A stretch of 64,000 bases of DNA, from NCBI GenBank assembly GCA_965206325.1, contig OZ242208.1:294326-358325 (forward strand), read 5' to 3'. Below are positions 4,681-50,870 of this stretch, in pieces. Position 1 is the stretch's first letter. Every line of letters starts with the position of its first letter. Source of the stretch: Gammaproteobacteria bacterium (GTDB lineage: Bacteria > Pseudomonadota > Gammaproteobacteria > Tethybacterales > G965206325). Under the pieces are notes generated by a model, which saw nothing but the letters and a program-made list of their open reading frames with translations, had not been told where the DNA came from and ran no database searches. Position numbers and translations under genes: made by a program.

Positions 4681-5232
4681 ATGGAATCGCCGCTGCGAAT
4701 CGGGCTTGTTTCCGTCTCCGACCGCGCCAGCAAAGGCGACTACGCCGACGCCGGAATTCCGGCGCTGCGCGAATGGCTGACGCGCGCCCTCATTACTAAA
4801 TGGGAAGAGCGAATCGCGTTGATTCCGGATGAATTCGCCGACATCAAAAGCGCATTAATTCGGCTGGCCGACGATGAAAAATGCGGACTGATTCTCACTA
4901 CCGGCGGCACCGGCCCGTCGCCGCGCGATGTTACGCCGGAGGCTACGCTTGCCGTCGCTGCGCGCGAATTGCCGGGCTTCGGCGAATTAATGCGCGCGGT
5001 CAGTTTACGCTATGTGCCGACGGCGATTCTGTCAAGGCAGACGGCGGCGGTGCGGGGCGAATCGCTCATCATTAATTTGCCCGGACAGCCCAAAGCCGTC
5101 GCTGAAACGCTGGACGGCATTTTCGCCGCCGTGCCGTATTGTCTGGATTTAATCGGCGCGCCGTATATTGAAACCGACTCCGCCGTCGTCGCTACATTTC
5201 GCCCCAAGTCGGCGGCGAAAAAAGCGCGATGA
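4681..5232 (+). CDS. mogA: molybdopterin adenylyltransferase MogA/MoaB family
   Basis: TTGGTGPSPRDVTPEA motif of the MoCF biosynthesis domain; 183 aa. Confidence 0.8.
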   Translation: MESPLRIGLVSVSDRASKGDYADAGIPALREWLTRALITKWEERIALIPDEFADIKSALIRLADDEKCGLILTTGGTGPSPRDVTPEATLAVAARELPGFGELMRAVSLRYVPTAILSRQTAAVRGESLIINLPGQPKAVAETLDGIFAAVPYCLDLIGAPYIETDSAVVATFRPKSAAKKAR

Positions 5233-5747
5233 ATCGGTGGACGCGATGGCTGGCTTGGCGCGCGCATCAGCAGATTCACCGCGCGCCCTACGGCTTAGCG
5301 CGGCTGGCGCATTCCGATTTAATGTCGTGGAAGCAGGAGCAGGTTTCGCGCGGACTCGCCATCGGACTTTTCTGGGCTTTCGTGCCGATGCCTTTCCAAA
5401 TGGCGCCGGCGGCGCTATTTTGCTGGCTGACTCGCGCCAATTTGCCGCTGGCGCTGGCGGGCGTTTGGATTTCCAATCCGTTTACATATGTGCCGATTTT
5501 TTACGCCGCCTACCGCGTCGGCGCATTTTTTACGGGAGTGATTCCGGATCCAATGCCGTCGTCGATCGGCAATTATTTGTCGGCGCGCGCTTCGCCGTTT
5601 TTATTGGGCTGCTTGATTTTTTCCTGCACGGCGATGACTGTCGGCTATTTTATCGGCTATCCGCTGGCGAAAATCGTGGAAAGCGGACGGAATGCCCGCG
5701 AAACACTTCGCCGAATTAAACGCAAAAAGCGCGCAAAATCGCAATGA
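5229..5747 (+). CDS. DUF2062 family membrane protein
   Basis: Hydrophobic 172-aa ORF with a basic C-terminal tail; pattern of the DUF2062 family. Overlaps mogA stop and trpF start. Confidence 0.55.
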   Translation: MNRWTRWLAWRAHQQIHRAPYGLARLAHSDLMSWKQEQVSRGLAIGLFWAFVPMPFQMAPAALFCWLTRANLPLALAGVWISNPFTYVPIFYAAYRVGAFFTGVIPDPMPSSIGNYLSARASPFLLGCLIFSCTAMTVGYFIGYPLAKIVESGRNARETLRRIKRKKRAKSQ

Positions 5748-6385
5748 AAAAAGCACGGACGCGAATTAAAATCTGCGGTGTCACCCGCCCGGAAGACGCC
5801 ATTCTCGCCGCCGAACTGGGGGCGGACGCCGTCGGCTTGGTATTTTATCCGCCCGCCTCCGCCGCTTTGACCATCGCGCAGGCGGCGGAAATTGCGCGCG
5901 TCCTGCCGCCGTTTGTATCGGCGGCGGCTTTGTTTGTGCAGGCGTCGGCGGAATTTGTCGGCGAAGTGATTGATGCCGTCCGTCCGCAGATTCTGCAATT
6001 TCACGGCGGCGAGGACGCTGAATTTTGCGGACAATTTTCGCAGCCGTATATTTTCGCTTGCCGCGTGCGGGAATCGGCGGATATAATAAAGGCGATTGAA
6101 TCGCATCCTTCGGCGCGCGCGATTTTGCTGGATTCTTTCAGCAAGGATTCACCGGGCGGCAGCGGACGAACTTTTGACTGGAATTTAATTCCGCCGAATT
6201 CGTCCAAGCCGTTTATTTTAGCGGGCGGACTCACGCCGCAGAATGTCGGGGCGGCGGTGCGGTCGGCGAGGCCTTTTGCAGTGGATGTTGCCAGCGGCGT
6301 GCGCGACGATGAAAATCCGCGCCGCAAAAATCCCGACAAAATCCGCGCGTTTATTGAAGAGGTGAAAAATGCCGACGAATCTTAA
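5744..6385 (+). CDS. trpF: phosphoribosylanthranilate isomerase
   Basis: [14 protein letters not shown]-terminus and TIM-barrel PRAI motifs; immediately upstream of trpB. Confidence 0.85.
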
Positions 6386-7571
6386 TTACGCCTACCCCGA
6401 CGCCGCCGGGCGATTCGGCAAATTCGGCGGCGTTTATGTCGCCGAGACGCTGATGCACGCCGTCCATCAACTCGCCGACGCTTATGCGAAATTTCGCGAT
6501 GACGGCGATTTTCAGGCGGAAATAAATTCGCTTCTCGCCGAATATGTCGGACGCCCGAATCCGATTTATTTTGCGGCGCGATTTTCCGTCCGCTGCGGCG
6601 GAGCGAAAATCTTTTTGAAGCGGGAGGATTTGAATCACACCGGCGCGCACAAAATCAACAACGCCGTCGGACAAATTCTGCTGGCGCGCCGAATGGGCAA
6701 GCGGCGCATTATCGCCGAAACCGGCGCCGGACAGCACGGCGTCGCCGTCGCCACAGTTTGCGCCAGAGAAGGTTTGCCATGCGTGATTTACATGGGCGAA
6801 GACGACATCGTCCGCCAGCGGACAAATGTGCAGAGAATGGAATTGCTGGGGGCGAAAGTCGTCCCGGTTTCATCCGGCTCCAAAACGCTCAAAGACGCCT
6901 TAAACGAGGCGCTGCGGGATTGGGTCGCCAACATTGACGATACTTTTTATGTTATCGGGTCGGTGGCGGGGCCGCATCCGTATCCGATGATGGTGCGGGA
7001 TTTTAATGCCGTCATCGGCCGCGAATGCATTTTGCAAATGCCGAAAATCGCCGGACGCCAGCCGGATGCCGTTGTCGCCTGCGTCGGCGGCGGCTCCAAT
7101 GCGATGGGAATTTTTTATCCCTACATTCCGAATGCATCGGTGCGGCTTGTCGGCGTGGAAGCGGGCGGCGAAGGCATTGAAAGCGGCAGGCATTGCGCGA
7201 CTTTGTCCACCGGTCGTCCGGGAATTCTGCACGGAATGCTTTCGTATTTAATGCAGGACGACGACGGGCAAATTCTGCAGACGGCTTCCATTTCGGCGGG
7301 GCTGGATTATCCGGGAGTCGGACCGGAGCATTCGCATTTGAAGGAATCCGGCCGCGCCGAATACGCCGTCGCCAGCGATGCGGAGGCGCTTGACGCCTTT
7401 GACGATTTGGCGCGCTTGGAAGGAATTCTGCCCGCTTTGGAATCCGCCCACGCCCTCGCGCATGCCAAGAATCTCGCGCGCGAATTGGGGCCGGAAAAAA
7501 TCATTCTCGTCAATTTATCGGGGCGCGGCGACAAGGATTTGGATACGGTGCTGAAAATTAAAAATCGCTGA
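6369..7571 (+). CDS. trpB: tryptophan synthase beta chain
   Basis: [12 protein letters not shown]-lysine motif, GGGSNA, and 400 aa length. Confidence 0.95.
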
Positions 7572-7591
7572 ATCTCGGCTTCGTCGGCAAA

Positions 7592-8368
7592 ATGCGGGAG
7601 ATGGAAAAAAGCCCGTTTGAAATTCTCGGCGTGCATCCCAACGCCGAAATGCGCGAAGTGGAGCGCGCCTATCGCAAACTGGCCATGCGATGGCATCCCG
7701 ACCGCAACTTGGGGGATAAATTCGCCGAGGAAAAATTCAAGGAAATTCGCCGCGCCTACGAATCCGTGCGCGACGGCAATTTTCTGCGTCCCGGCTATTC
7801 CATTTGGAGCAGTGCATCAGCCCGCGAAAAAGCGGCGAAGCGGCATCCGCCGACGGCGAAAAGCGAAGAATCGTCCGCAAAAGAATCCGCGCAAAATCAC
7901 GCGCCGGAATTTGCGGAAAGATGGGAAACCGGCAATTGGACTCAGGATATTCCGTGGCTGTCTATTTTGGCATCGGCGATTGGCGTCGCCGTGTGGATTG
8001 CAGTGGGCGGCAGTGCGGGATTCGCCTTGTTTGCGATGGCGGCGGGCGTATCGCATATCGTTTACAAGCGGGCGGAATCGTCTCCGCCGATGGCGGCTTT
8101 GGAGGCGTTTTTCAAAGCGGGCGTAAGGGCAATTTGGACTCTGCTGCTGGCTTACGGCGTGTGGCTGATGGCGCGCGAATTATTTCCTTCGTTCGGCCGG
8201 GCCGCCGACGAATTCGCCGCCCTTACATGGCCGCGTCTGGCGGGCGGCGTGGCGACAATATTCGCCGTTGCTTTGCTGGCGAAATATCACCGCAAATTCG
8301 GACTCGGCAAATTCTGGCTGATGCTGTGGGCTTTCGGAATTCTGCTGCTGTGGATTCTGCTGCTGTGA
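7592..8368 (+). CDS. J-domain (DnaJ-like) membrane protein
   Basis: N-terminal J domain with HPD motif ([10 protein letters not shown]) followed by several hydrophobic helices. Confidence 0.65.
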
Positions 8369-8485: not shown

Positions 8486-10117
8486 CTATTCGTTGGCGAG
8501 CGGAACCTCCAAATTCCCAATCAGTCGCCTTGCTTCATCATCACCAAGACTAGGACGAGTTTCCTCGACATCAAACCGAGAAAATACACGCTCCCGATTT
8601 AATCCAAATGACGCATGACCGTCTATGGCACGGAACAAAATAGCGTTCTGCGTAACTGGGAGGCCTCCCATATTGGTAATTGTCTCGGCATGGTCTTCCA
8701 AAAATCCCGACACCGGGAAAAATGTCTCGCGATGCGTTAATGGCACATTGCCATCTCCCTTGGCAAAATCCCAAATTTCGTTTGGGTTGCCGGCGTTGGG
8801 CGGCGTGTTAGGGTTGAGAAATTCAGCACGAACACGATACTGCGTCAGCATCGTCCGGTCGCCGACACTAAGCGCATAAAAAAGATTGCCTTGTAAGCAA
8901 TCCTCGCACGACGAGGAGCCCGCGAAAATGACCCGGTTATAGCGGCCTTGAACATTCCCAATGAGGAAATCCGTCCCCGGCCCATTATCATAAGCGTCGG
9001 TAGCGAGATTGCCGAAATCCGTCGGCAGAATTAAATCGCCCGGCAATTCCAGAATTGAATCGTCCGTCAATTCGCTCGGCAAATTGCCTAAAATGCCGGC
9101 ATTGGCAAAATCTCCCAAATTGTCGGACGGCGGCGGAGGAGGAGGAGGGGGCTGGTTATCCACAATTTCTTGCTCGATGATCGCCGCTTCCTGCAGCACT
9201 TCTTCTTCTTCTTTCTGCAGAGCGTCCGTCACCGTTTCCGTTTCCACAATTTCCGCAACCGGAATTTCGTTCGCCGTTTCTTCCACACTCGGAACCACAG
9301 CAGGCGGCGATGCTTCGTCATCGGCCACGACGGCGGCGGGAGCATCCGAAATTTCAATTACTTCCTCGCCCCCGGATTCTTCATTGCCGCTGTCGGCGGT
9401 TTCCGTTTCGGCGGCGGCTGTTTCGCTTTCGCTGGAATCGCTTTCGGATTCTTCAGTCGGTGCGACGACAACCGGCCCTTCGGTGGTTTCCGGAATGTCG
9501 GCGACATACTGCGGGGCTTCGCCTTGTGCGGCGAATCCGGCCTGCGAATCCGGCGTAATTTCAATCGCTTTCCCTTCGCTTTGCAGGAAAGTGGCACCCT
9601 TATAAACTTTGTTGTAAGTGCCTGATTTCCCGCCGCCGTAGGACGCTTCCTGTCCTTCCGGAATATAAAAGACGGCGTGGTCGGTTCCACGCAAGCCAAT
9701 CGTCCCTGTGGGAGTGTTCACGCGATAATTGTCCTTTGCCTGCTCTCCGATTTTTCCGGAGAGAGTGCGAAAGCCGCCTTTAATCACAGAAAGGACGCTG
9801 GCGGAGTTATCGCCGTCCAAGCGATATTCCGCAATAATGAAAGCCGAATTCGGCCGCACGGCAATGCGGGCGTCATCCATCATCAGCAATTGGGCCGACG
9901 CTTTCGGGCCGGTTTCAATCGTGTCCGACTCAAAAATGGGGTCGGATTTGTCCAATTGCCGGCGGTCGCCGTCGCTGACGGCAAACACCTCGCCGAGGAC
10001 GAATTGCGCCTTGCCGACGGACTCAACGGCTTCGGCGTTGATGCTCCACATCGTGCAGACGAGGGCGAAAATCACGCCGCGAACGGCGTTTATCGGGAAA
10101 ATTTTGCTGGTAATCAT
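8486..10117 (-). CDS. secreted FecR-domain protein with long acidic low-complexity and poly-Pro linker
   Basis: Signal peptide, FecR-like N-terminal domain (RIAVRPNSAF...GTIGLRGTDH), E/S/T-rich acidic stretch, PPPPPPPPP, and a C-terminal globular region. Confidence 0.6.
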   Translation of the reverse strand: MITSKIFPINAVRGVIFALVCTMWSINAEAVESVGKAQFVLGEVFAVSDGDRRQLDKSDPIFESDTIETGPKASAQLLMMDDARIAVRPNSAFIIAEYRLDGDNSASVLSVIKGGFRTLSGKIGEQAKDNYRVNTPTGTIGLRGTDHAVFYIPEGQEASYGGGKSGTYNKVYKGATFLQSEGKAIEITPDSQAGFAAQGEAPQYVADIPETTEGPVVVAPTEESESDSSESETAAAETETADSGNEESGGEEVIEISDAPAAVVADDEASPPAVVPSVEETANEIPVAEIVETETVTDALQKEEEEVLQEAAIIEQEIVDNQPPPPPPPPSDNLGDFANAGILGNLPSELTDDSILELPGDLILPTDFGNLATDAYDNGPGTDFLIGNVQGRYNRVIFAGSSSCEDCLQGNLFYALSVGDRTMLTQYRVRAEFLNPNTPPNAGNPNEIWDFAKGDGNVPLTHRETFFPVSGFLEDHAETITNMGGLPVTQNAILFRAIDGHASFGLNRERVFSRFDVEETRPSLGDDEARRLIGNLEVPLANE

Positions 10118-23042: not shown

Positions 23043-24398
23043 CTAAGTATTACTCAGGGCGGGTGATTCGCGCTTCACAGGCCGGGCAACCCCGCCACCA
23101 TCTCTGCGCGCAACCGCTTTGGATTTCTCCAATGCGGCATCGACCAATCCGGCCGTTAAAATGTTCACCGCCGCGTTAACATCCGCGTCGGCTTCATAAC
23201 CGCAGGCAACGCACTTAAATGCCTCGCGTTTGCGGTTTTCCGCCGCGACCATCCCGCATTTAGGACAAGTCCGGCTGGTGTTCTTGGGATCGACGAGTTT
23301 GACTTTCCCGCCGCGCTCTTCTACTTTGTAGATAATCATCGTCCGCAGCATTCCCAATCCGGCGGCAAGCAGCGCGCGATTCAGCGCGGCTTTGGTGCGG
23401 ACATTCCTGCCCGGATTATCGGCGTCGCCTTTCGCCGACGCCGTCATATTCAAAAGTTTCAAATCCTCCATCGCGATAAAGCCGTGCTTGACAGCGACGG
23501 CTTTGCTCAAATGATGCAAAGCATTATGGCGGCAGTCGCGAATCTTGTGCGACGCTTTCGCATGACGCTGCTGCGCGATTTCATAGCGGCGGCTGTATCG
23601 CGGCTTGCGCTTTTTCCACGACTTGCCTTCGTTTTGCTGTGCGCGCAATTCTTTGAGTCGCTTTTCGGCTTGGCCTCGCGTTTCGCTTTTGCCGTCCCAG
23701 CCGACTTCGCGGCGCAATGCGGCTTCGCGCTTGCGCGCCATCGCCCTTTCATACCGACGCTTGCGGGCGGCGTGGCGCTTTTGATTCCGCTCGGCGTAAT
23801 GCTGCGAAATGCGATACAAAGTGCCGTCGCTCGCCGCCGCCGTTTTCTTAATGCCGACATCCAAACCGACCGGCTCGCCGTTATGCATCGGCGCATCCTT
23901 TTCAAAAGTAAAAGGAATGCAGACAAACCAGCGGTCGCCATCGCGAGTGACATTCACCGTCCCCTGCTTGCCATCGGGCAAAGGAAGATGCATTCGCATT
24001 CGGACGAGTCCGATATTCGGCAGGCGAATGCGATTGTTATAAATCGGGCATTTGCCCGCATCAACGCGGAAGTAATCCGGCGTAATGCCTTTTGCGGAAA
24101 AGCGGGGGAATCCTTTCTGTCCTTTGAAAGCGGCGACAAAATCGCCGTTCAATGCGCGGGCGGCTTGCCCTTGCGCGTCCGCGGATACCGCGCAAAACCA
24201 ATTGATATTGCCGCGCAATTCCGTCCGCATTTGATAGCCGCGTTTGCGGTCGTATTTTTCGCCCGCCTCAAACCGCGTTTTATTGTCGGCGATTAATTGA
24301 TTGCGAAACCATCGGCAAGCCCCCGCCGTGCGGGCCAGCCGACGCCGCTCGCCAACTCGCGGCATCAGCGGAAATTTATAAGTGCGGGTGATTTCCAT
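23043..24398 (-). CDS. tnpB: TnpB (IS605 OrfB family RuvC-like RNA-guided nuclease)
   Basis: RuvC-I GLDVGIK, RuvC-II IAMEDLK, zinc finger CPKCG...CVACG, RuvC-III DADVNAAVNI; 451 aa with a basic insertion. Confidence 0.85.
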   Translation of the reverse strand: MEITRTYKFPLMPRVGERRRLARTAGACRWFRNQLIADNKTRFEAGEKYDRKRGYQMRTELRGNINWFCAVSADAQGQAARALNGDFVAAFKGQKGFPRFSAKGITPDYFRVDAGKCPIYNNRIRLPNIGLVRMRMHLPLPDGKQGTVNVTRDGDRWFVCIPFTFEKDAPMHNGEPVGLDVGIKKTAAASDGTLYRISQHYAERNQKRHAARKRRYERAMARKREAALRREVGWDGKSETRGQAEKRLKELRAQQNEGKSWKKRKPRYSRRYEIAQQRHAKASHKIRDCRHNALHHLSKAVAVKHGFIAMEDLKLLNMTASAKGDADNPGRNVRTKAALNRALLAAGLGMLRTMIIYKVEERGGKVKLVDPKNTSRTCPKCGMVAAENRKREAFKCVACGYEADADVNAAVNILTAGLVDAALEKSKAVARRDGGGVARPVKRESPALSNT

Positions 24399-25263: not shown

Positions 25264-26154
25264 CTATTCCTCCGCCTGAAGAATTTTGAAGACGGCGGAG
25301 GAATCCAGATCCCCCCCCCCTCCTTCTATTAATTTGTCAAGGCGATGCAGAAAGATTTCCGCGCCCGGCAGGGGGGCGGAAAATTGTTCGGCGTTTTCCA
25401 ATGCGATTTTCATATCCTTGCGATGCAAAGCGGCTTTGAATCCGGGGGCGTAATCGCCGGAAAGCATTCGCGCCGCATGAATTTCCATCACCTTGCTGGC
25501 GGCGAATCCGCCCATTAATGCTTGGCGGACGCGCGCCGCATCAACGCCGTTTTTCTGCGCGAGGCGAAACGCTTCGGCGATTCCTTCTATGGTCGCGCCG
25601 ATGACAATTTGATTGCACGCTTTCGCCGTTTGTCCGGCGCCGCTTTCGCCGACAAGCGTGACGGTCTTTCCCATTGCATTAAACAAAGGAAGCGCGCGCG
25701 CAAATGCTTCTGCATTGCCGCCGACCATAAAAGAAAGCGCGCCTTCTATCGCGCCTTTTTCGCCGCCGGAAACAGGAGCGTCAAGGAGTTCAATTTTTTT
25801 TTCGGCGAGAGTCGCAGCCATTTGGCGGGTCGCCGCCGGGGAAATTGTGCTCATATCGGCGACGATCGCTCCTTCTTTTGCGCCGTGAATGACGCCGTTG
25901 CCGCCGAGCAGAATCTCCTTCACATCAGGCGTGTCCGAAACATTAGTGAAGATGAATTCGCATTGGCGGGCGAGGTCGGCCGGAGTCGCCGACGCCTGCG
26001 CGCCCTGCGAAATTAAAGATGCGGCCTGCTCCGGTCGGCGCGCAAAAACAATCAGCGGATAGCCCGCGCGCAGAAGATTCGCCGCCGCCGGCTTTCCCAT
26101 AATGCCGAGCCCGATATAGCCGACAGTCGGCTTTTTATTTTCCGTCATCATCAT
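25264..26154 (-). CDS. NAD(P)-dependent 3-hydroxyisobutyrate / 2-hydroxy-3-oxopropionate reductase family dehydrogenase
   Basis: GYIGLGIMG Rossmann motif and the 6-phosphogluconate-DH-like NAD-binding fold pattern. Confidence 0.8.
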   Translation of the reverse strand: MMMTENKKPTVGYIGLGIMGKPAAANLLRAGYPLIVFARRPEQAASLISQGAQASATPADLARQCEFIFTNVSDTPDVKEILLGGNGVIHGAKEGAIVADMSTISPAATRQMAATLAEKKIELLDAPVSGGEKGAIEGALSFMVGGNAEAFARALPLFNAMGKTVTLVGESGAGQTAKACNQIVIGATIEGIAEAFRLAQKNGVDAARVRQALMGGFAASKVMEIHAARMLSGDYAPGFKAALHRKDMKIALENAEQFSAPLPGAEIFLHRLDKLIEGGGGDLDSSAVFKILQAEE

Positions 26155-27308
26155 TCCTTTGAATTGCGAATGCGCGATTGTAGCGCATTTTTTGCGGCGG
26201 GATATCGGGAGAATTTGTGGCTGTCGCCAATCACTAAATCCCGATATTTGCGATGAATGAAAAGGACTTCGCGGCCGGCTTTAATTTCTTCCAAGACGCC
26301 GATGGCGCGCAATTCGCGCAGATATTTTGCCGCAGTAATGCGCGAGCATTTCAAAGTTTGCATTAAATTTCGAATGCGGCAGTAGGGCTGCATAAAAATG
26401 CAGTTGGCGATGGATTCCGAAGTCGACGGCGGCCAAGAATGCCGGCGAATATGCTCGGCGGTGTGCGACATTAAATTGCAGACCGCGTCAATGCGGGCAA
26501 TCATCCATCTTGATGTTTTTTCAATTGCGTCCAGCATGTAGAGAATCCAAGGTTCCCATTCGGCGCGGCGGGTGACGCCGTCCAAGAGTTTGTAATACTT
26601 TTCGCGGTAATTCAAAATGTGCCGGCTGAGATACAAAATCGGAATGTCAAGCAGTCCGCGCTCCATCAAATGCAGAATGTTGAGGATGCGCCCCGTGCGG
26701 CCGTTGCCGTCGGCGAAGGGATGAATGGCTTCAAATTGATAATGCGCGACCGCCATTCGCACAAGCGGATCAAGGGCGGGCTTGTCGGCGTGAATGAATC
26801 GCTCCCAGTTATCCAGAAGGTCAAGGAGCAATTTTTCGCCCTGCGGCGGCGTGTAGATGGGGCGTCCGTTTTTTCCCTGCAGGAATGTCCCCGGAATTCG
26901 GCGGACGGACATTGGCGCGCCTTTGATGATTTGGCATATTTCAATCGCCGTTTTTTTGCTTTGCGGATGGCCGCCGCGAATCAAATCGTGTCCGCGCCGC
27001 AGGGCGGTGCGATAGCGCAGCGCTTCTTTGGTGGCGGGATCGGTTTTGGAATCGTCCTCGCCGGAGTGGCGAAAAAGCGAATCGGCGGTGGTGACGATGT
27101 TTTCAATTTCAGAACTGGCCTGCGCTTCCAGCAGCGGAATTGTGTTAATCAGAACCGTCTGGTCGGGCAGGCGTCGTCCGGCCTGTTTTAATTCGCCCAA
27201 GGCGGCGCGGGCGGCGATGCATTTTTTCAGCACGGCGACGGTTTCCAGCGGCTTGCGCGGCGGCAGGAGCGGGAGATCGTCGTAGGGCTTGCGGGGATTC
27301 ATTCGCAT
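26151..27308 (-). CDS. fic: Fic family adenylyltransferase with N-terminal inhibitory helix and C-terminal winged HTH
   Basis: Fic motif HPFADGNGRTGR, inhibitory motif SSEIEN, C-terminal HTH-like region. Confidence 0.85.
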   Translation of the reverse strand: MRMNPRKPYDDLPLLPPRKPLETVAVLKKCIAARAALGELKQAGRRLPDQTVLINTIPLLEAQASSEIENIVTTADSLFRHSGEDDSKTDPATKEALRYRTALRRGHDLIRGGHPQSKKTAIEICQIIKGAPMSVRRIPGTFLQGKNGRPIYTPPQGEKLLLDLLDNWERFIHADKPALDPLVRMAVAHYQFEAIHPFADGNGRTGRILNILHLMERGLLDIPILYLSRHILNYREKYYKLLDGVTRRAEWEPWILYMLDAIEKTSRWMIARIDAVCNLMSHTAEHIRRHSWPPSTSESIANCIFMQPYCRIRNLMQTLKCSRITAAKYLRELRAIGVLEEIKAGREVLFIHRKYRDLVIGDSHKFSRYPAAKNALQSRIRNSKE

Positions 27309-29790: not shown

Positions 29791-30059
29791 TTTCGCCTGC
29801 GAAAAAAGCGGCGAGGATTTTTTCGCCGACGGCGAGAATTCCCGTCAAGACAAGGGGGGAAATCGCCAAAATGCGGGCGATGGTGGTGGTGTTTTCCATT
29901 TGAATCCTTTGGTTGGTTTGATTGGAAAAAGGGGATTATACGCGAATTTCCGAATTTTCGACACAAAACAACAAGCAATGGCAATTTTTTCCAGAATCTT
30001 TTCTTCGTCGATGGTTAATTAAGCATGCTATAATTTTGCAAAAACTGGAGCATAATCCC

Positions 30060-31889
30060 ATGAAAAAAAGTGCCAAGGCGAATTTTGACCACGCCGATTC
30101 CTTTGTGTTTCGCAACGAGCGTCCGTGGCCTGTTCCGCGCCTCAAGCGGGCGGCGATTGTCGGCCACACGACCCCGGTGTCATCCAAAATCTGGATTCGC
30201 ACCGGCGAGCTCGGCGATTATAAATTTATCGCCTGCCCCCCTAACGCCGTGCAAAATCCCATTGACAAGATCGGAAAAACGGTCACGATGGACAATGCCG
30301 CCCTGAATCGCATTTTGCAGCGAAACCCCGGCAGCAAGATGGAGGACTTTCGCATCGCCGATTTCAATGATGACACCACGCATGTCGTGCGATTGAATGA
30401 TCTCAGTCCCGACACGCTGTATCGCTACATGGTTCTTCAAAGGGGACCGAAAGAGGGCGGGGATGAATGGCGCGCAATCATCGGCGCTGACAAAGTGGGA
30501 GTGGGCAAAGCGCGACGGCGCGGCTTGTCGTTCAGGACTCTGAGTGACGACCAAATGCGGCCTTTCAGTTTCGCGTTGTTCAGTTGTCATAATCCGTTTG
30601 TGGAGGAGGGATTTTTCTCTTTTTCCAAACGAATTAAGGTTGAACGCATGGAAGCATGGGCTGCGCTTGCTCAAACTCTTCGTCGCCACAGCGAACGCGA
30701 TGAAAAGCGTTTGGCATTTGTCATCGCTGGCGGCGACCAAGCGTATACCGACGGTCGCCCCGGCATTGACATTTGGGAATTCCTTTACAAAAAAATGAAA
30801 GAGGCGAAGGAACGCGGCAAACAACTCCCTGAAGAAGGAACGATGCTAACTTGGTTCCGCGACATTTTTCGCGCATATTGGGGGTTTCCAGATGTCCGCG
30901 AAGTCTTTGCAAATTATCCGACCTACATGATTTGGGACGACCACGAAATCGGCGATGGATGGGGATCTTTTGATTCTCTTAACAGCCGCCGCAAAAATCC
31001 CCGCCGTCACCCGATTTATGAAAAGGCGGATGAAATCGGCCTGTCTCATAAACAGGCGGATGAATTGCTACACCGAATGTTTAATGCCGCCAAGGAGGCA
31101 TATACGGAATACGAGCACAGCCATAATCCGGACACGAATGGCGAATTTCATTACAGTTTCAAGCACGGCAGCTGCGCTTTCTTTGTTCTGGATGGCCGCG
31201 GACACCGTGATGTGAATCGGCCGGAATACCGAATACACGGCGAAGGGCAAATGAAAGAATTTGCGAAATTTGTCGATGGATTGAATCCGGACAAGGATAA
31301 ATTTCTGTTCATCGTTTCTGCTGTTCCGGTCTTGCACACCACTGATCTTATCGTCGGTCTTGAAGACCAAAAGGCATTCGGTTTGATTCGGGGTGGCGAT
31401 CGCGATGACTTACGCGATGGCTGGGAGCATTCTCTGCACGATGCCGAGCGTAGAGAATTTAAGCGCATTCTTTGGCAAGCTGCGGATAAAGGCATTCGCA
31501 TCGCCATACTTTCCGGCGATGTCCACGCATCCGCTGCGTTTCGGCTCGAGAAAAAAGGAATTGATCTTCCCATCTATCAATTGACATCAAGTGCCATCAC
31601 TTATCACCTCACTTTGGTGCAGGAGAAATTTGCGAAGCATTTATTGCCGGCAGCCGAAGAAGGGAAAACCCAAGATGGCGAATATTTTACCCGCTTGGCA
31701 TTAAGCGTAAAAAGCCCTTATGCTATTGTGCAAGTTGATCCCAAGAATGGAAAGGCGGTTTTTCAACTGTATGGTGTTGAACAAACCCCTAGCCACAACG
31801 ATTCATCAAAAGCGGATTTGCGAACCAATTCCGCTCAAAGGATTGAGCTTTGGTCTCAGAGTAATGCGAAAACTCTTGGGAATGGTTAG
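30060..31889 (+). CDS. PhoD-like metallophosphoesterase / alkaline phosphatase D family protein
   Basis: GGDQAYTDG and WDDHEIGDGWG motifs; low-GC; SD ggag 10 nt upstream of the ATG at 30060. Confidence 0.7.
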   Translation: MKKSAKANFDHADSFVFRNERPWPVPRLKRAAIVGHTTPVSSKIWIRTGELGDYKFIACPPNAVQNPIDKIGKTVTMDNAALNRILQRNPGSKMEDFRIADFNDDTTHVVRLNDLSPDTLYRYMVLQRGPKEGGDEWRAIIGADKVGVGKARRRGLSFRTLSDDQMRPFSFALFSCHNPFVEEGFFSFSKRIKVERMEAWAALAQTLRRHSERDEKRLAFVIAGGDQAYTDGRPGIDIWEFLYKKMKEAKERGKQLPEEGTMLTWFRDIFRAYWGFPDVREVFANYPTYMIWDDHEIGDGWGSFDSLNSRRKNPRRHPIYEKADEIGLSHKQADELLHRMFNAAKEAYTEYEHSHNPDTNGEFHYSFKHGSCAFFVLDGRGHRDVNRPEYRIHGEGQMKEFAKFVDGLNPDKDKFLFIVSAVPVLHTTDLIVGLEDQKAFGLIRGGDRDDLRDGWEHSLHDAERREFKRILWQAADKGIRIAILSGDVHASAAFRLEKKGIDLPIYQLTSSAITYHLTLVQEKFAKHLLPAAEEGKTQDGEYFTRLALSVKSPYAIVQVDPKNGKAVFQLYGVEQTPSHNDSSKADLRTNSAQRIELWSQSNAKTLGNG

Positions 31890-31920
31890 GACGGAGTTAA
31901 AAACTCCGCCCCGCTTTTTT
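31890..31920 (+). terminator. Rho-independent terminator after the phoD-like gene
   Basis: ggagtt-aaaa-aactcc hairpin, GC-rich clamp, then TTTTTT. Confidence 0.55.
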
Positions 31921-31921
31921 C

Positions 31922-31987
31922 AATCCAGCCGCTGATACGCCGACAAGGTGAGAAAATCGGCAAGCGAATCCGCAAGGACAAATCTTC
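31922..31987. repeat. 66-bp direct repeat (left copy) duplicating the 3' end of aceB; left boundary of the Nudix-kinase islet
   Basis: Identical to 33414-33480 apart from a 1-nt indel. Confidence 0.75.
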
Positions 31988-32658
31988 TACGCCCAAGCCA
32001 GCGATTTTTGGACGATAAAGTCGCGTCCGAGTATTTGTCGGGCGGAATCGCTTGTTAATAGCAGCGATGACCATGGATCAAGTTCGTCGCCCTCCAAATC
32101 GCCGATTTCGGCAAGAGAATGAATAGCGGCGCGGTCGGCGTTGACGAATTCGCCGCCGTCGCATTCGCGGTTAATGGAGAGGTCGTCGCCGGCAAAGCGG
32201 CATTCAAAAACGACTCCGAAATGACGGCTGCTGGAAAGCGTGGACGGGTCGGCGACGACTCCAATCGGGTCGGGAAAAACTTTCGCGCTGAGTCCTAATT
32301 CTTCGTGCAGTTCGCGTTCTACGCAATTTTTCAGGAGGTCGCCGCTGTTTGCGTCGACTTTGTTAATATGTCCGCCGAAAAGCAGCGTATGGCGCAGGCG
32401 AAGATCGTCGCGTCCGTTTTTGGCGCGCCTTAAACGCAGCAAGCGTCGCGCATCATTGCGGACAATGGCGCAGGGAATAATTTGGCGCACCGCTTCCGTT
32501 TGTTCGGCCCATGCGCGAGGATAAAAATTTCCGCAGCGTCGCACTTCGCTTAATGTGTTCCGCAAAATGGCGGCATCGGCGCAGAATTGCGGACGAATAT
32601 AAAAGTCCGCCAAAATTCCTTCGGGGACGGCGAAAATTGTGGATTCGGAATCAGGCAT
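31987..32658 (-). CDS. Nudix hydrolase
   Basis: Nudix box G(x5)E(x7)REVxEExG present as GGHINKVDANSGDLLKNCVERELHEELGL. Confidence 0.75.
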   Translation of the reverse strand: MPDSESTIFAVPEGILADFYIRPQFCADAAILRNTLSEVRRCGNFYPRAWAEQTEAVRQIIPCAIVRNDARRLLRLRRAKNGRDDLRLRHTLLFGGHINKVDANSGDLLKNCVERELHEELGLSAKVFPDPIGVVADPSTLSSSRHFGVVFECRFAGDDLSINRECDGGEFVNADRAAIHSLAEIGDLEGDELDPWSSLLLTSDSARQILGRDFIVQKSLAWA

Positions 32659-33367
32659 CGCGCGCTTTTTCTTCCAGCAAATTCATAATATCGCCGACAA
32701 TTTCGCCTGCGGTTTTTCGGGGGTCATCGCCGTTGTCGGTGCGAAAGTAGGAGATGCGTGCTTCGTTTTTCAATGATTCGTATTGCTTGAGCAATTCGCC
32801 GAGCATTTCCGGATTCATCGCGGTGCCTTCACTTTTGATAAGTTTGTGTTCATGCTCGCGCCGCATGGATGTTTCAGGTGAGCAAGTAAACAGGTAAATA
32901 CGACCAACGATGCCCGCCCATTTCGGATGCTGAGCGAAGCGGTCGAAGCGGTCGTATTCATCGTCTGACAATTCTTTGCGGTCGCGCAACAAGCGCATCC
33001 ACGCGAGTGAGTCAAATGGCCCGCGATCCAAAATAACGAGATCACAGGGTTCCGCGCTGTGGCAGGCGACCAAGATTTCGCTGACGGCGTAGTTCAGCGC
33101 CCACGCATTAAATGCCACCCAATCGCTGCGCAATTGGGATGGCGTTCGCTTGCTGGCGCCTTCGGTCGGCGACCACACGCGGAATCCGGTGCGTTTAAAA
33201 AAGTGGGCGACGGTGTCAATGGTTGTGCTTTTGCCCGCTTTCGGGCTGCCGGCGAATTCCACCACCAGCGGCTTAAAATCGTCGCCGCGCTCGGAAATAG
33301 CGGGCATCCGCTTAGAGAGAGATTCCGCTTGCCGTCGCAGATTATCGCTGTCGGTGTTGTTTGTCAC
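32651..33367 (-). CDS. P-loop NTPase, nucleotide/deoxynucleotide-kinase-like
   Basis: Walker A GSPKAGKST, DRGPFDS (DRx-like) motif and Arg-rich lid region; 8-nt overlap with the Nudix gene. Confidence 0.6.
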   Translation of the reverse strand: MTNNTDSDNLRRQAESLSKRMPAISERGDDFKPLVVEFAGSPKAGKSTTIDTVAHFFKRTGFRVWSPTEGASKRTPSQLRSDWVAFNAWALNYAVSEILVACHSAEPCDLVILDRGPFDSLAWMRLLRDRKELSDDEYDRFDRFAQHPKWAGIVGRIYLFTCSPETSMRREHEHKLIKSEGTAMNPEMLGELLKQYESLKNEARISYFRTDNGDDPRKTAGEIVGDIMNLLEEKARDA

Positions 33368-33411
33368 GCCACGCTTCTGAGTATGATTCGCATTCTACAC
33401 GACCCGAAGAT

Positions 33412-35010
33412 TTAATCCAGCCGCTGATACGCCGACAAGGTGAGAAAATCGGCAAGCGAATCCGCAAGGACAAAATCTTCCAGCAACTCGGCGGCGGAAT
33501 TCAAATGTTCGGCGGCAGCCCCCCCCCCCCTCGACGCATCGCCCCATTCCTTTGCGATGGAGTCGCGCGCAAAAGCAAGACGCGATAAAAACATTTCGCG
33601 CGTGATGTTTTCGCCGCTCTGCAGAACACCCTTTGGATATCTCACCCATTGCCACAATTGAGAACGGGCGATTTCGGCGGTGGCGGCGTCTTCCATCAAA
33701 TTAAAAATGGGAACCGCACCCCCCCCCCCAAGCCACGCCGAAATATATCGCAATGCGACTTGAATGTTATTGTCAAGTCCTTCTGCGGTAATGTCGCCGA
33801 GGGGAGTGGCGATTAAATCGTCGGCGGAAATTTCTTGGGAAGGGAATGCATCCTTTTGATTCGCCGAAGGCATTTGTTTATTAAAAACTTCCATCGCCGT
33901 TTTGATGAGGTCGGGATGAGCGACCCAAGTGCCGTCGTGGCCGTCTTGGGCTTCGCGCATTTTATCTTCGCGCACTTTGTTTAAGGCGGCGGCGTTTGCT
34001 TTTTCGTCGGCGCGAATTGGAATAAACGCCGCCATTCCGCCCATTGCATGCGCGCCCCGCCGATGGCATGTTTGAATTAATAAGCGCGAATATGCGCGCA
34101 AAAACGGCTGCGTCATGCCGACGGCATTGCGGTCGGGCAGAACGCGCGAAGGGTCGGCGCGAAAGGTTTTAATGTAACTGAATATGTAATCCCATCTTCC
34201 GCAATTCAGGCCGACGATTCGCCCGCGCATCGCGTGCAGAATTTCGTGCATTTGAAAGACCGCCGGCAGGGTTTCAATTAAAAGCGTGACCTTGGTTGTT
34301 TCGCGCGGAATATCCAATTGGGATTCGGAGAAAGCGATGACATCATCCCACAGCGACGCTTCCTCCCAATGCTCAACCTTGGGAAGATAGAAAAACGGCC
34401 CGCGATTCTTTTGATGAAGAATCTTCGCGCCGTGAAAAAAGAACAGGGCAAAATCCACCAGCGAAGCCGCAACCGGCTTTCCGCGAAAGATGAGATGCTT
34501 TTCCGGCAGATGCCATCCGCGAGGGCGGACGATTAATTGGCATTCGTGATTCGGATTAAGGGCGTAATGCTTGCCGCTGGCGGGGTCAATGAATTCGCAT
34601 TCGCCGCGGACGGCGTCGTAAAGATTAACCTGTCCGGCGGCGACGCGCGCCCAAGTGGGCGAAAGCGAATCTTCGCAGTCGGCCATAAAAACGCGCGCCG
34701 ACGAATTAAGGGCGTTGATGAGCATTTTGCGGTCGACCGGCCCGGTGATTTCCACGCGGCGGTCTTCCAAAGCCGACGGCGGCGGCGCGACTTGCCATTC
34801 GGATTCGCGGATGCTTCGCGTTTCTTCAAAAAAATTCGGCGATTGGCCGGAGTCAAATTCCGCCTGCCGCACTTGCCGATTCTGCAGCAGTTTGTCGCGG
34901 CGGTCGGAAAAGCGCGACGCAATGTCCGCCAAAAAAGCCATCGCTTCCGGCGTGAAAATTTTTCGCGCCGATTCGTCGATGGGAGCGGTGATTTCGATTT
35001 TGTCCGTCAT
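33412..35010 (-). CDS. aceB: malate synthase A
   Basis: 532 aa with malate synthase A motifs (LNCGRWDYIFS, catalytic Arg/Asp regions). Confidence 0.9.
   Translation of the reverse strand: MTDKIEITAPIDESARKIFTPEAMAFLADIASRFSDRRDKLLQNRQVRQAEFDSGQSPNFFEETRSIRESEWQVAPPPSALEDRRVEITGPVDRKMLINALNSSARVFMADCEDSLSPTWARVAAGQVNLYDAVRGECEFIDPASGKHYALNPNHECQLIVRPRGWHLPEKHLIFRGKPVAASLVDFALFFFHGAKILHQKNRGPFFYLPKVEHWEEASLWDDVIAFSESQLDIPRETTKVTLLIETLPAVFQMHEILHAMRGRIVGLNCGRWDYIFSYIKTFRADPSRVLPDRNAVGMTQPFLRAYSRLLIQTCHRRGAHAMGGMAAFIPIRADEKANAAALNKVREDKMREAQDGHDGTWVAHPDLIKTAMEVFNKQMPSANQKDAFPSQEISADDLIATPLGDITAEGLDNNIQVALRYISAWLGGGGAVPIFNLMEDAATAEIARSQLWQWVRYPKGVLQSGENITREMFLSRLAFARDSIAKEWGDASRGGGAAAEHLNSAAELLEDFVLADSLADFLTLSAYQRLD
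33414..33480. repeat. 67-bp direct repeat (right copy), the genuine 3' end of aceB
   Basis: Matches 31922-31987; encodes ...ADFLTLSAYQRLD-stop of malate synthase. Confidence 0.75.
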
Positions 35011-35124
35011 TTTTTGTCCTCGCGGTTAGCGGAGAATTATATTATGATTCGGCGGATGAAAGAATGGCTGATTTCCATCGCCGATTTGCGGCGAAAAAAC
35101 AAGGACAATTCTTAAACCCCGCCG

Positions 35125-36096
35125 TCATGTTTCGCGCTTTGCGCGCGGATGCGATTTGTCGTAAGTGGCCGCAAGCGCCTGAAAATCAAGATGCGTATAA
35201 ATTTCTGTGGACGCCACGCTGCGATGCCCCAGCATTTCCTGAACCGCGCGCAAATCGCCGCTGGATTGCAGCAAGTGCGACGCGCAAGAATGCCGTAATT
35301 GATGCGGTGTAACGCCGCGTTCAAATCCGGCCTGCCGCGCCCATGCTTGTATCCGCCGCTGCACCGCGCGAGATGAAAGCCGCCCGCCGCGGCGATTAAT
35401 AAAAAGCGCCGGCGATTCGCCCGCCGACCGCGCGCGCGCGGCAAGCCAGCGATTGAGTGATTCCGCCGCGCGTCCGCCCATCGGTGCTTCGCGTCCGCGT
35501 CCGCCCTTGCCGATTCGGATTCGCACCGCGCCGCCGACGATGTCCGCATCGCCGAGATTGAGCGAGATCAATTCGCCGACCCGCAAGGCCGACGAATACA
35601 TCAACTCAAACATCGCTGAATCGCGGCGATGAAGAAAATCCTTTTTTAATTTATCAGGCGAATTTGAATTGGGATTATCGCCCGCGCTTTCCGACCCCCC
35701 CCCCCCCCGTTCAAAAAAGCGCGCGGTTTCATCCGGCGAAAGCGCCTTGGGAAGACGCTTTTTGCCGCGCGGCGCGCGCATCGTCCGCGCCGGATTTGTT
35801 TGGGATTCGCCGCGCTCTTCCATAAAATTAAAAAACATTCGCCACGCCGACAAACGCCGGGCGAGAGTCGCCGCGCTCAGATTTTTTTTGACGGCGCTTT
35901 CAAATGCGACGCGCACAAAATCGCCATCCTCCTCCCCCTCCTCCTTTTCTTTGGAAAGAGATTCGGCGGCATTAATAAGTTGGGTAAGGTCGCGATGATA
36001 AGCCGCGCAAGTGTTCGCGCTTAAGCGGCGGACATCGCGCAAGTGCGAAAGAAATTCGCCGGTCAATTGCCGCAGCGATTCGGCGTCTTTTATCAT
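35125..36096 (-). CDS. xerC: tyrosine recombinase XerC
   Basis: Phage-integrase family, R..HSCASHLL...LGHRSVASTEIYTHL with catalytic Tyr; dapF-DUF484-xerC synteny. Confidence 0.85.
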   Translation of the reverse strand: MIKDAESLRQLTGEFLSHLRDVRRLSANTCAAYHRDLTQLINAAESLSKEKEEGEEDGDFVRVAFESAVKKNLSAATLARRLSAWRMFFNFMEERGESQTNPARTMRAPRGKKRLPKALSPDETARFFERGGGGSESAGDNPNSNSPDKLKKDFLHRRDSAMFELMYSSALRVGELISLNLGDADIVGGAVRIRIGKGGRGREAPMGGRAAESLNRWLAARARSAGESPALFINRRGGRLSSRAVQRRIQAWARQAGFERGVTPHQLRHSCASHLLQSSGDLRAVQEMLGHRSVASTEIYTHLDFQALAATYDKSHPRAKRET

Positions 36097-50786: not shown

Positions 50787-50870
50787 GGTGCCGATGCCCA
50801 GATTCGAACTGGGACGGGTCGCCCCACTGCCCCCTCAAGACAGCGTGTCTACCAATTTCACCACATCGGC
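50787..50870 (-). tRNA. tRNA-Leu (anticodon GAG), type II with long variable arm; CCA not fully encoded
   Basis: Reverse complement folds as acceptor GCCGATG/CATCGGC, D arm GTG-AAATTGGTAGA-CAC, anticodon stem CTGTC/GGCAG with loop TTGAGGG, 13-nt variable arm, T arm CCCAG-TTCGAAT-CTGGG; secG-tRNA-Leu linkage as in E. coli. Confidence 0.85.

What the first reader, a model, noticed from the sequence alone, without database searches (positions are those of the whole stretch)
31922..33480. 1.5-kb islet bounded by 66-bp direct repeats that duplicate the aceB 3' end, carrying a Nudix hydrolase and a P-loop nucleotide-kinase-like gene
Sequence 31922-31987 is a near-perfect copy (one 1-nt indel) of 33414-33480, which is the last 22 codons of malate synthase A. 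This is the signature of site-specific integration into a gene 3' end with target reconstitution (attL/attR). The cargo is only two overlapping genes: a Nudix hydrolase and a kinase-fold P-loop protein (Walker A GSPKAGKST, DRx motif, Arg-rich lid). No integrase is present, so the islet is a remnant or is mobilised in trans. A Nudix hydrolase plus a nucleotide kinase could form a nucleotide-based toxin/antidote or an anti-phage nucleotide-depletion or nucleotide-modification pair.
Basis: partly seen in the sequence, partly recalled or inferred. Interest (0 to 1): 0.6.

Follow-up and report, generated by a model that had tools for sequence, protein, structure and literature searches.

The report
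Strain-variable kinase–Nudix cassette behind aceB
A 1.5-kb two-gene insert sits behind the malate synthase gene in about half of the closely related strains of an uncultured bacterium and brings its own spare copy of that gene's last 22 codons; it is a real but fairly ordinary accessory islet with no recombinase of its own, and its cargo is an uncharacterised kinase–Nudix enzyme pair.

Summary
Bases 31922-31982 and 33414-33474 are identical over 61 nt. Counting the stop codon the match is 64 nt with one mismatch, and chance predicts none. The right copy is the real 3' end of aceB. The two copies bracket a 1,492-bp unit holding a dNK/TMPK-fold P-loop kinase and a TM1382-type Nudix hydrolase.

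Ten conspecific genomes from one metagenome settle the insertion question. Five carry the cassette at exactly this site. Five have a precise empty aceB–phoD junction with a single copy of the repeat.

The aceB-proximal copy (TAA stop) never varies and travels with the cassette. The phoD-proximal copy (TGA stop) varies like the resident aceB alleles. The cassette sits in at least four different phoD-side haplotypes.

No integrase lies in the islet. The neighbouring recombinase is housekeeping XerC. Nothing related was found in phage, plasmid or viral collections. The cassette is as diverged among strains as the core genome.

Whether a recombinase acting in trans or host recombination made and moves the insert cannot be decided from sequence. 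I slightly favour host recombination.

The two genes are adjacent in nearly all relatives and fused into one protein in most, so they work as one enzyme unit. That argues against a toxin–antitoxin pair. Interest is moderate to low.

The parts
33412..33480 (-). aceB-proximal repeat copy ('R'): the functional last 22 codons of malate synthase A plus its TAA stop (33412-33414). It is cassette-linked and invariant in all five occupied strains.
   Evidence: strain comparison
31920..31987 (-). phoD-proximal repeat copy ('L'): a non-coding duplicate of the aceB 3' end with a TGA stop (31920-31922), as in every empty site, and one T missing at the junction with the Nudix stop codon. Its alleles vary among strains like resident aceB alleles.
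32651..33367 (-). 238-aa P-loop kinase with a deoxynucleoside-kinase/thymidylate-kinase fold. Motifs: Walker A GSPKAGKST, DRGPFDS, and invariant TEGASKRTP.
   Evidence: AF2 pLDDT 90.7; Foldseek PDB top hits dCK, dNK, TMPK and AbmG, E about 1e-7, TM 0.6-0.69; BFVD hits to viral dNK/dTMP kinases; Pfam AAA_28 at 24.5 bits, below the 27 cut-off; alignment A4
31987..32658 (-). 223-aa Nudix hydrolase of the TM1382 type. It has an N-terminal extra domain and the Nudix-box residues RELHEELGL, and it overlaps the kinase gene by 8 nt.
   Evidence: PF00293 at 31.3 bits; profile hit to PDB 3E57, E 6e-20; AF2 pLDDT 87.5 and Foldseek 3E57 E 1.6e-9; alignment A5
33368..33411 (-). 44-nt cassette-borne spacer between the aceB stop and the kinase GTG start. 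It contains a TGTAGAAT extended -10-like motif (33393-33400). Relatives have TGTATAAT just upstream of their start codons.
   Evidence: read directly from the sequence; not found by the consensus promoter scan
33412..35010 (-). aceB, malate synthase A, the target gene. It is intact.
29922..31889 (+). PhoD-like phosphatase, convergent with aceB (the start codon is uncertain). Its alleles are hyperdivergent among strains.
31892..31919 (+). Hairpin GGAGTT-AAAA-AACTCC followed by a T run: a terminator-like element between phoD and the L copy. It is present in the same place in the empty-site strain L175.
35125..36096 (-). XerC-type tyrosine recombinase in a dapF-DUF484-xerC operon. It is a housekeeping gene, not part of the islet, and is present in both empty and occupied strains.

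Best explanation
SHOWN: the islet is a 1,492-bp presence/absence polymorphism within one bacterial species. Relative to the empty allele (aceB, stop TGA, phoD flank), the occupied allele contains an inserted block. The block consists of a spare copy of the last 22 aceB codons ending in TAA, a 44-nt spacer, the kinase gene and the Nudix gene. It is joined to the host at GATTT(T)GT, 66 bp before the aceB stop. This is what a single reciprocal crossover between the chromosome and a small DNA circle carrying an aceB-end copy would produce. INFERRED, and my commitment: the cassette is not an autonomous or currently hopping element. It arose once, or rarely, by an illegitimate or homology-facilitated event; the Nudix-side junction shares the microhomology GAAGATTT with aceB. 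Since then it has been kept, moved between haplotypes and lost by the host's own homologous recombination. On one side that recombination uses aceB. On the other it uses the 61-64-bp repeat, which is the only conserved sequence next to the hyperdivergent phoD alleles. Recombination between the two repeat copies gives a precise empty site. The cargo is one functional unit: a nucleoside/nucleotide kinase coupled to a Nudix pyrophosphohydrolase, probably acting on the same nucleotide-type substrate in salvage or housecleaning of a nucleotide pool. It is probably expressed from its own -10-like element and by read-through from aceB.
For: Five occupied loci (window, L001, L176, L177, L178) and five empty loci (L088, L089, L090, L174, L175) come from one metagenome; several are circular 1.95-1.99-Mb contigs at 21-107x coverage. 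The insert length and both junctions are identical in all occupied strains. Cassette divergence among strains is 1.1-2.2%, the same as the aceB body at 1.0-2.9%, so the cassette is an old resident and not a recent invader. Cassette GC (0.50-0.57) equals that of the flanks. There is no recombinase in the islet, and apart from XerC none in the window. Relatives of the pair lie in ordinary chromosomal contexts without flanking repeats. None was found in phage or plasmid records or in IMG/VR. The population is visibly mosaic at this spot: L090 is a hybrid of two aceB-end alleles, and phoD alleles are so divergent that blastn fails over about 2.1 kb. Functional coupling of the two genes: of 71 JGI loci with room, 43 are fused and 25 are adjacent with the kinase first, often overlapping. 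About half of the top 150 family representatives are 430-480 aa, the fused length.
Against: The phoD-proximal copy carries resident-type alleles right up to 2-3 nt from the junction in L176, and a hybrid in L177. The aceB-proximal copy never varies. The cassette also sits in at least four flank haplotypes. Under host recombination alone, this pattern needs several crossovers or conversion tracts inside 64 bp. It is more simply produced by repeated site-specific integration with a fixed crossover point. No donor arrangement (aceB-kinase-Nudix without the second copy) was seen. The substrate and pathway of the enzymes are unknown.
Confidence: 0.45

Rival explanations
1. The repeats are true attL/attR sites. 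The cassette is an integrase-less mobile cassette (CIME-like or integron-cassette-like). A tyrosine recombinase encoded elsewhere in the genome or on a helper element inserts and excises it, with strand exchange at GATTT(T)GT at the left edge of the repeat. The rest of the 64 bp is an element-borne replacement for the aceB end.
For: The gene end is precisely reconstituted with a different stop codon (TAA on the cassette side, TGA in all ten resident copies). The junction is identical in five strains. The L copy equals the resident allele over its whole length in L176 and is hybrid in L177, while R is invariant. The cassette occurs in at least four phoD-flank haplotypes, and three of them are also seen as empty sites. 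In L155 a fused kinase-Nudix gene lies directly next to a tyrosine integrase in a mobile-element context, so the family can be MGE cargo.
Against: No candidate recombinase lies in the islet or the window. No larger element occupies this site in any of ten strains. The att sequence is absent from IMG/VR. The cassettes are as diverged as the core genome, so there is no sign of recent transfer. Only 1 of 84 related loci has an integrase nearby. Other loci have no flanking repeats. Only a weak 5-bp dyad lies within the repeat.
Confidence: 0.33
2. The islet is the decayed remnant of a larger integrase-bearing island or prophage that once integrated into the aceB 3' end.
For: The overall architecture (direct repeats duplicating a gene's 3' end) is that of integrated elements. 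CIMEs are defined as such remnants (PMC5704250, read).
Against: The 1,492 bp are completely filled: repeat, 44 nt, kinase, an 8-nt overlap, Nudix, and a stop codon abutting the other repeat. There are no pseudogene fragments. A deletion would have had to end within a few nt of both att sites. All five occupied strains have the same minimal form.
Confidence: 0.07
3. On function: the pair is a toxin-antidote module or an anti-phage system that depletes or modifies nucleotides.
For: It is an accessory gene pair at intermediate frequency in a population. Its diversity is as old as the core genome, which fits balancing selection. The module stands alone and changes chromosomal context between lineages. 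In L006 and L007 it borders a variable region with an R-M system or an HNH protein, with DarT nearby. One instance sits in an MGE. My own knowledge: defensive dCTP deaminases carry an N-terminal nucleotide-kinase domain.
Against: PADLOC gives no significant hit (best E 0.013, over the Nudix box only). Fusion into a single polypeptide in most relatives is atypical for toxin-antitoxin pairs. Among 145 neighbouring proteins, most are housekeeping. The only recurrent families are HD (4), Metallophos (3) and single hits such as NT5C, which points to nucleotide metabolism. Defence-type domains are sporadic. In one lineage the fused gene is embedded between nuoG and nuoH. It is absent from phage and plasmid collections.
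Confidence: 0.12
4. The duplication is an assembly artefact.
For: The genomes are long-read metagenome assemblies with homopolymer problems: L089 aceB is frameshifted in a poly-G tract.
Against: The same structure appears in five independent contigs, including circular chromosomes at 39x and 97x coverage. The phoD-proximal repeat copies carry strain-specific alleles. The clean empty alleles come from the same sample.
Confidence: 0.01

Closest known systems
CIMEs (cis-mobilizable elements), e.g. those left at the 3' end of target genes by streptococcal ICEs/IMEs (definition read in PMC5704250)
   Same: No integrase or transfer genes. Bounded by direct repeats that include the 3' end of the target gene. 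The target gene is kept intact. Presence/absence varies among strains.
   Different: CIMEs are decay products of ICEs/IMEs and are mobilised by a related element that integrates at the same site. Here there are no decay remnants, no cognate element at the site in ten strains, and no demonstrated recombinase.
Integron gene cassettes
   Same: Very small (1.5 kb), tightly packed, recombinase-less. Inserted co-directionally downstream of an expressed gene.
   Different: No attC-type imperfect palindrome, no integron integrase or attI, and no cassette array. The repeat is a copy of a host gene's end, not a cassette-borne recombination site.
Products of homology-facilitated illegitimate recombination or Campbell-type single-crossover insertion (own knowledge; no paper on bacterial HFIR was read)
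   Same: One side is anchored in a homologous gene (aceB). The other junction lies at a short microhomology (GAAGATTT). The result is a duplication of the homologous segment flanking the foreign DNA.
   Different: A donor with the aceB-kinase-Nudix order was not found. The same junction in several flank haplotypes needs later recombination inside 64 bp.
Deoxynucleoside kinase / thymidylate kinase family (dCK, dGK, Dm-dNK, TMPK, AbmG)
   Same: Predicted fold (Foldseek probability 1.0, TM 0.6-0.69), Walker A motif, DR-x motif, basic lid region.
   Different: Only 12-18% identity. No Pfam dNK or TMPK hit for the window protein. The family-specific invariant motifs (EFxGSPKxGK, TEGASKRTP, DRGPFDS) and the obligatory partnership with a Nudix protein are not features of those enzymes.
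TM1382 of Thermotoga maritima (PDB 3E57), an uncharacterised putative Nudix hydrolase
   Same: Homologous over the N-terminal extra domain and the Nudix fold (profile E 6e-20; Foldseek E 1.6e-9).
   Different: About 20% identity. TM1382 has no known function, so it gives no substrate. Its gene neighbours were not examined.
NadR and NadM (bifunctional NAD-salvage enzymes; PMC9503650)
   Same: They combine a P-loop kinase (NadR) or a Nudix domain (NadM) with another nucleotide-metabolising domain. AAA_28, the NadR-kinase-type Pfam family, is the best Pfam match, although weak.
   Different: No NMN adenylyltransferase domain is present. The kinase-Nudix combination is not the NadR or NadM architecture. 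The fold matches favour dNK/TMPK.

Membership tests
CIME / integrase-less integrative element | [quoted passage not shown] | tested here: met
   61 nt exact and 64 nt with one mismatch; the copies bracket 1,492 bp; the right copy is the aceB 3' end. Whether they act as att sites was not shown.
CIME / integrase-less integrative element | Lacks its own integration and transfer genes | tested here: met
   Only the kinase and Nudix ORFs lie between the repeats.
CIME / integrase-less integrative element | Derived by decay from an ICE/IME (remnants of such genes) | tested here: not met
   There is no spare sequence: 44-nt spacer, an 8-nt gene overlap, and a stop codon abutting the repeat.
CIME / integrase-less integrative element | A cognate integrase-bearing element uses the same att site | tested here: not met
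   None was found at the site in ten conspecific loci. There is no exact att match in IMG/VR. The complete genomes could not be searched.
IMEX (Xer-exploiting element) | Flanked by dif-like XerC/XerD sites | tested here: not met
   The best match to the 28-bp dif consensus at either junction is 13-14 of 28, equal to the background mean of 13.7.
Integron gene cassette | attC imperfect inverted repeat; integron integrase and attI nearby | tested here: not met
   Only a 5-bp dyad (GCCGA/TCGGC) lies within the repeat. The adjacent recombinase scores best as XerC, at 292 bits against 111 bits for the integron integrase model.
Transposon / IS with target-site duplication | Terminal inverted repeats, a short (2-15 bp) duplication, and a transposase | tested here: not met
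   No inverted repeat pairs the cassette ends. The duplication is 64-66 bp. The only transposon-type gene is a TnpB at 23043-24398, about 7.5 kb away.
Nudix hydrolase superfamily | Nudix fold and Nudix-box catalytic residues (REUxEExGU) | tested here: met
   PF00293 at 31.3 bits against a cut-off of 21.1. R115, E116, E119 and E120 are invariant in 29 homologues. The fold matches 3E57 and other Nudix structures. The loop before the box is longer than canonical.
dNK/TMPK-type nucleoside or nucleotide kinase | P-loop NMP-kinase fold with Walker A, DRx motif and lid | tested here: met
   Foldseek hits to dCK, dNK, TMPK and AbmG at E about 1e-7. GSPKAGKST and DRG are invariant. Membership of a specific kinase family is not met: AAA_28 is below its cut-off and the TMPK/dNK models are not hit.
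Type II toxin-antitoxin pair | Two separate small proteins, toxin and neutralising antitoxin, from known TA families | tested here: not met
   The two are fused into one polypeptide in 43 of 71 related loci. No TA family was hit. Toxicity was not testable.
Known anti-phage defence systems (PADLOC-DB v2) | Significant match to a defence-system protein model | tested here: not met
   Best hits were E 0.013 and 0.0032 to PDC-S07, over the Nudix box only. Nothing matched the kinase.

The most novel reading that the evidence does not exclude
The cassette is a recombinase-independent or trans-served 'gene-end replacement' cassette. On this reading it homes by carrying a spare copy of the 3' end of its target gene. 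That would explain the same 'gene X - kinase/Nudix - X 3' fragment' layout at aceB here and at an integrase gene in L155. Its kinase-Nudix unit would be a nucleotide-pool conflict (anti-phage) module kept at intermediate frequency by balancing selection.
Probability: 0.1. Interest if true: 0.7.

Novelty: new member of a known kind. Interest (0 to 1): 0.38.

Why it matters
The locus is a clean natural example of how a minimal accessory cassette is held in and moved around a recombining population. There are ten alleles from one sample, with empty and occupied forms, hybrid repeat copies and several flank haplotypes. If a recombinase acts in trans, this would be an unusually small mobilisable unit targeting a protein-coding gene end. 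The cargo also points to an uncharacterised and fairly widespread bifunctional enzyme family: 651 clusters at 50% identity with E below 1e-10, mostly fused kinase-Nudix proteins. The only structural representative is the unannotated TM1382 structure. The fusion evidence gives a direct lead for biochemical substrate screening.

Tried and rejected
1. A GTDB species-representative scan with aceB found nothing closer than 56% identity. The empty sites came instead from the 90%-identity protein cluster and the contig look-ups.
2. I looked for the att sequence and for kinase relatives in IMG/VR, in phage records and in plasmid records. All were negative.
3. I looked for flanking direct repeats around the kinase-Nudix pair in 43 other loci. 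Only L001 (same species) and L155 have them. The 11-14-nt matches elsewhere are at chance level.
4. I tested whether two other strain-variable features nearby show the same end-duplication pattern. These were the cupin gene between xerC and aceB, and the Ank gene in L176. Neither does: the first is a simple internal deletion and the second is an insertion or replacement inside a small ORF.
5. I considered XerC and a dif-type site as the recombination system and rejected it.
6. Neighbourhood analysis of 145 flanking proteins gave no conserved partner. A 174-aa protein recurs upstream of the fused form in 20 loci but has no family match.
8. A literature search for TM1382 found nothing relevant.
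Full report
**Observation.** The repeat is real. The repeat finder gives 31919-31982 and 33411-33474 as 64 nt with one mismatch, 1,492 bp apart. A 61-mer is exactly identical at 31922-31982 and 33414-33474, and none is expected in shuffled sequence. It is the only long near-perfect direct repeat in the 64-kb window. The right copy is the last 22 codons plus the stop of malate synthase A (ORF 33412-35010, minus strand). The one mismatch is the middle base of the stop codon: the functional copy ends in TAA and the left copy in TGA. After a 1-nt gap in a T run, five more bases match, up to the stop codon of the Nudix gene.

**Anatomy.** Reading along the minus strand, the order is as follows.
- aceB, ending in the right copy (R, TAA stop).
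- A 44-nt spacer.
- The kinase-like gene, 33367-32651.
- An 8-nt overlap.
- The Nudix gene, 32658-31987.
- Immediately after it, the left copy (L, TGA stop).
- A hairpin with a T run.
- The convergent phoD-like gene, 29922-31889.

No sequence is unaccounted for. The recombinase gene just upstream of aceB (35125-36096) scores best as XerC. It sits in a dapF-DUF484-xerC operon and is present in all related strains whether or not they carry the islet. It is the only tyrosine recombinase in the window. A TnpB gene lies 7.5 kb away. The att region has no dif-like site. Cassette GC content does not differ from the flanks.

**The decisive comparison.** The source lineage is not among the GTDB species representatives; the best aceB match there is 56%. 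However, the aceB protein belongs to a 90%-identity cluster of 19 sequences, and every contig retrieved for its members came from one long-read metagenome, ENA ERZ25069326. Several of these contigs are circular chromosomes of 1.95-1.99 Mb. DNA was retrieved for nine of these loci.
- Four are occupied like the window: L001, L176, L177, L178.
- Five are empty: L088, L089, L090, L174, L175. In these, aceB is followed directly by phoD and there is one copy of the repeat, always ending in TGA.
- Contig lengths of the kinase cluster members suggest at least three more occupied genomes.

So the islet is a genuine insertion/deletion polymorphism at intermediate frequency. It is neither an ancestral fixed feature nor an assembly artefact.

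**Repeat alleles.** In all five occupied strains the insert is 1,492 bp and both junctions are identical.
- The R copy is invariant: GTCCTTGCG, then a 36-nt core, then CAGCGGCTGGATTAA.
- The L copy behaves like a resident aceB allele. In the window, L001 and L178 it equals R. In L176 it differs from R at four positions, two of which use variants also seen in empty strains (GTGCTGGC...). In L177 its stop-proximal part and flank are those of the empty strain L088 (GAGAAGTTGGATTGA...).
- The empty sites are themselves mosaic. L090 combines the L088-type distal half with the common proximal half.
- The cassette is found next to at least four different phoD-side haplotypes, and three of them are also seen as empty sites. 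The phoD alleles are so divergent that blastn fails over about 2.1 kb.
- Cassette divergence among strains (1.1-2.2%) equals that of the aceB body (1.0-2.9%) and does not track it.

**Mechanism.** What is shown is the topology. The occupied allele equals the empty allele plus a block of the form spare aceB end (TAA) - 44 nt - kinase - Nudix, joined at GATTT(T)GT. This is the product of one reciprocal crossover with a circle carrying an aceB-end copy. Which enzyme made it is inferred, and two readings remain.

- (a) Host recombination only, which I rate at about 0.45. A rare founding event, either illegitimate or homology-facilitated, with GAAGATTT microhomology at the Nudix junction. After that came allele shuffling, gene conversion between copies, and loss by RecA-type recombination using aceB and the 61-64-bp repeat. 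In favour:
  - There is no recombinase and no helper element at the site in ten strains.
  - The cassette is old and compositionally native.
  - Relatives of the pair are not mobile.
  - The population is highly mosaic.
- (b) A recombinase acting in trans at a fixed crossover next to the T run, which I rate at about 0.33. In favour:
  - R is invariant while L carries the resident allele.
  - The junction is the same in several haplotypes.

A decayed remnant of a larger island is unlikely (about 0.07), because the cassette has no spare sequence.

**Cargo.**
- The kinase has a confident predicted structure (pLDDT 90.7). Its closest solved and viral matches are deoxynucleoside kinases, thymidylate kinases and AbmG. 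Pfam gives only a sub-threshold AAA_28 match.
- The Nudix protein has intact catalytic residues and an extra N-terminal domain. It is homologous to the uncharacterised TM1382 structure, PDB 3E57.
- Both have many homologues that share contigs.
- In 80 JGI metagenome loci, 71 have room for both genes. Of these, 43 carry a single fused kinase-Nudix ORF, 25 have the two genes adjacent with the kinase first, and 3 lack a detectable Nudix gene. Pfam confirms both domains in one fused protein.
- The kinase family comprises 651 clusters at 50% identity with E at or below 1e-10. About half of the best 150 have the fused length.

The two proteins therefore act as one unit. That argues against a toxin-antitoxin pair. 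PADLOC, NCBIfam and PHROGs give no informative family. Gene neighbourhoods are heterogeneous and mostly housekeeping. The only recurrent neighbours are HD and Metallophos phosphohydrolases, plus a single deoxynucleotidase. In one lineage the fused gene lies between nuoG and nuoH. My inference is a nucleotide-pool enzyme for salvage or housecleaning. A defence role is not excluded (about 0.12).

**A second look-alike.** In L155, from a soil-type JGI contig, the fused gene (5971-7380) follows an intact tyrosine integrase (4829-5977). It is followed in turn by a copy of that integrase's 3' end, about 400 bp long and 81% identical (7467-7850). The setting is a mobile-element context with a resolvase, a small terminase subunit and an HNH protein. 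This is the same 'gene X - cargo - X 3' fragment' layout. It could equally be tandem accretion and decay of two elements. It is the only one of 84 related loci with an integrase nearby.

**Verdict.** Site-specific integration is plausible but not shown. The toxin/antidote idea is weakened. This is a new member of a known kind, an integrase-less accessory islet at a gene's 3' end, carrying an uncharacterised but widespread bifunctional enzyme family. Interest is moderate to low.

Noticed in passing
window-wide, e.g. 16401 (16 nt), 28197, 33519-33530 (inside aceB), 35695, 39103: There are 27 G or C homopolymer runs of 9 nt or more (up to 16 nt) in 64 kb, against 2 A/T runs of that length. About one would be expected by chance. 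Many lie inside ORFs and encode GGGG or PPPP. In strain L089 the aceB reading frame is broken at this tract, which is either an assembly error or phase variation.
   Followed up: partly
window 35011-35124 (between xerC and aceB); L089 and L090 5611-5967: A 118-aa Cupin_2 gene is intact in L089 and L090. In the window, L088 and L001 it has an internal deletion of about 285 bp, leaving only its start. This is a simple deletion with no flanking duplication.
   Followed up: yes
window 29922-31889 and the phoD genes of L001, L088-L090, L174-L178: The PhoD-like phosphatase has at least four hyperdivergent allele classes among strains that are otherwise 97-99% identical. blastn finds no alignment over about 2.1 kb between classes. 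This looks like allelic replacement or diversifying selection.
   Followed up: partly
L155 4171-7932 (JGI contig Ga0075030_100000441): A fused kinase-Nudix gene lies between an intact tyrosine integrase and an 81%-identical copy of that integrase's 3' end. A resolvase, a small terminase subunit and an HNH protein are nearby.
   Followed up: partly
L136, L146, L159, L165 (e.g. L136 4260-8385): The fused kinase-Nudix gene is embedded between nuoG and nuoH of the NADH dehydrogenase operon, with 7-nt gaps on each side.
   Followed up: no
L132, L133, L137, L139 and about 16 further loci: A 174-aa protein with no family match recurs directly upstream of the fused kinase-Nudix gene in 20 loci. In some of them a 518-aa unknown protein lies upstream and an HD-domain protein downstream.
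   Followed up: partly
window 33393-33400 (-); L002 about 9977-9990; L091 about 5317-5330: Kinase genes of relatives are preceded by TGTATAAT only 7-8 nt before the start codon, which looks leaderless. The window has TGTAGAAT 25 nt before its GTG. The window also shares a 13-nt exact match (AGAATGCGAATCA) with the region upstream of the closest foreign relative, L002.
   Followed up: partly
window 23043-24398 (-) and 26151-27308 (-): An IS605-type TnpB (Cas12f-like) gene and a SoFic-type Fic adenylyltransferase lie 5-8 kb from the islet. Both are also present in related strains.
   Followed up: no
L176 6759-7802: One strain has an ankyrin-repeat gene inserted into or replacing part of a small 51-aa ORF between phoD and the SLT gene. 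It has no flanking duplication.
   Followed up: yes
window 50787-50870: ARAGORN finds a tRNA-Leu(GAG) here, but the Rfam gathering-threshold scan of the window returned no match at all.
   Followed up: no
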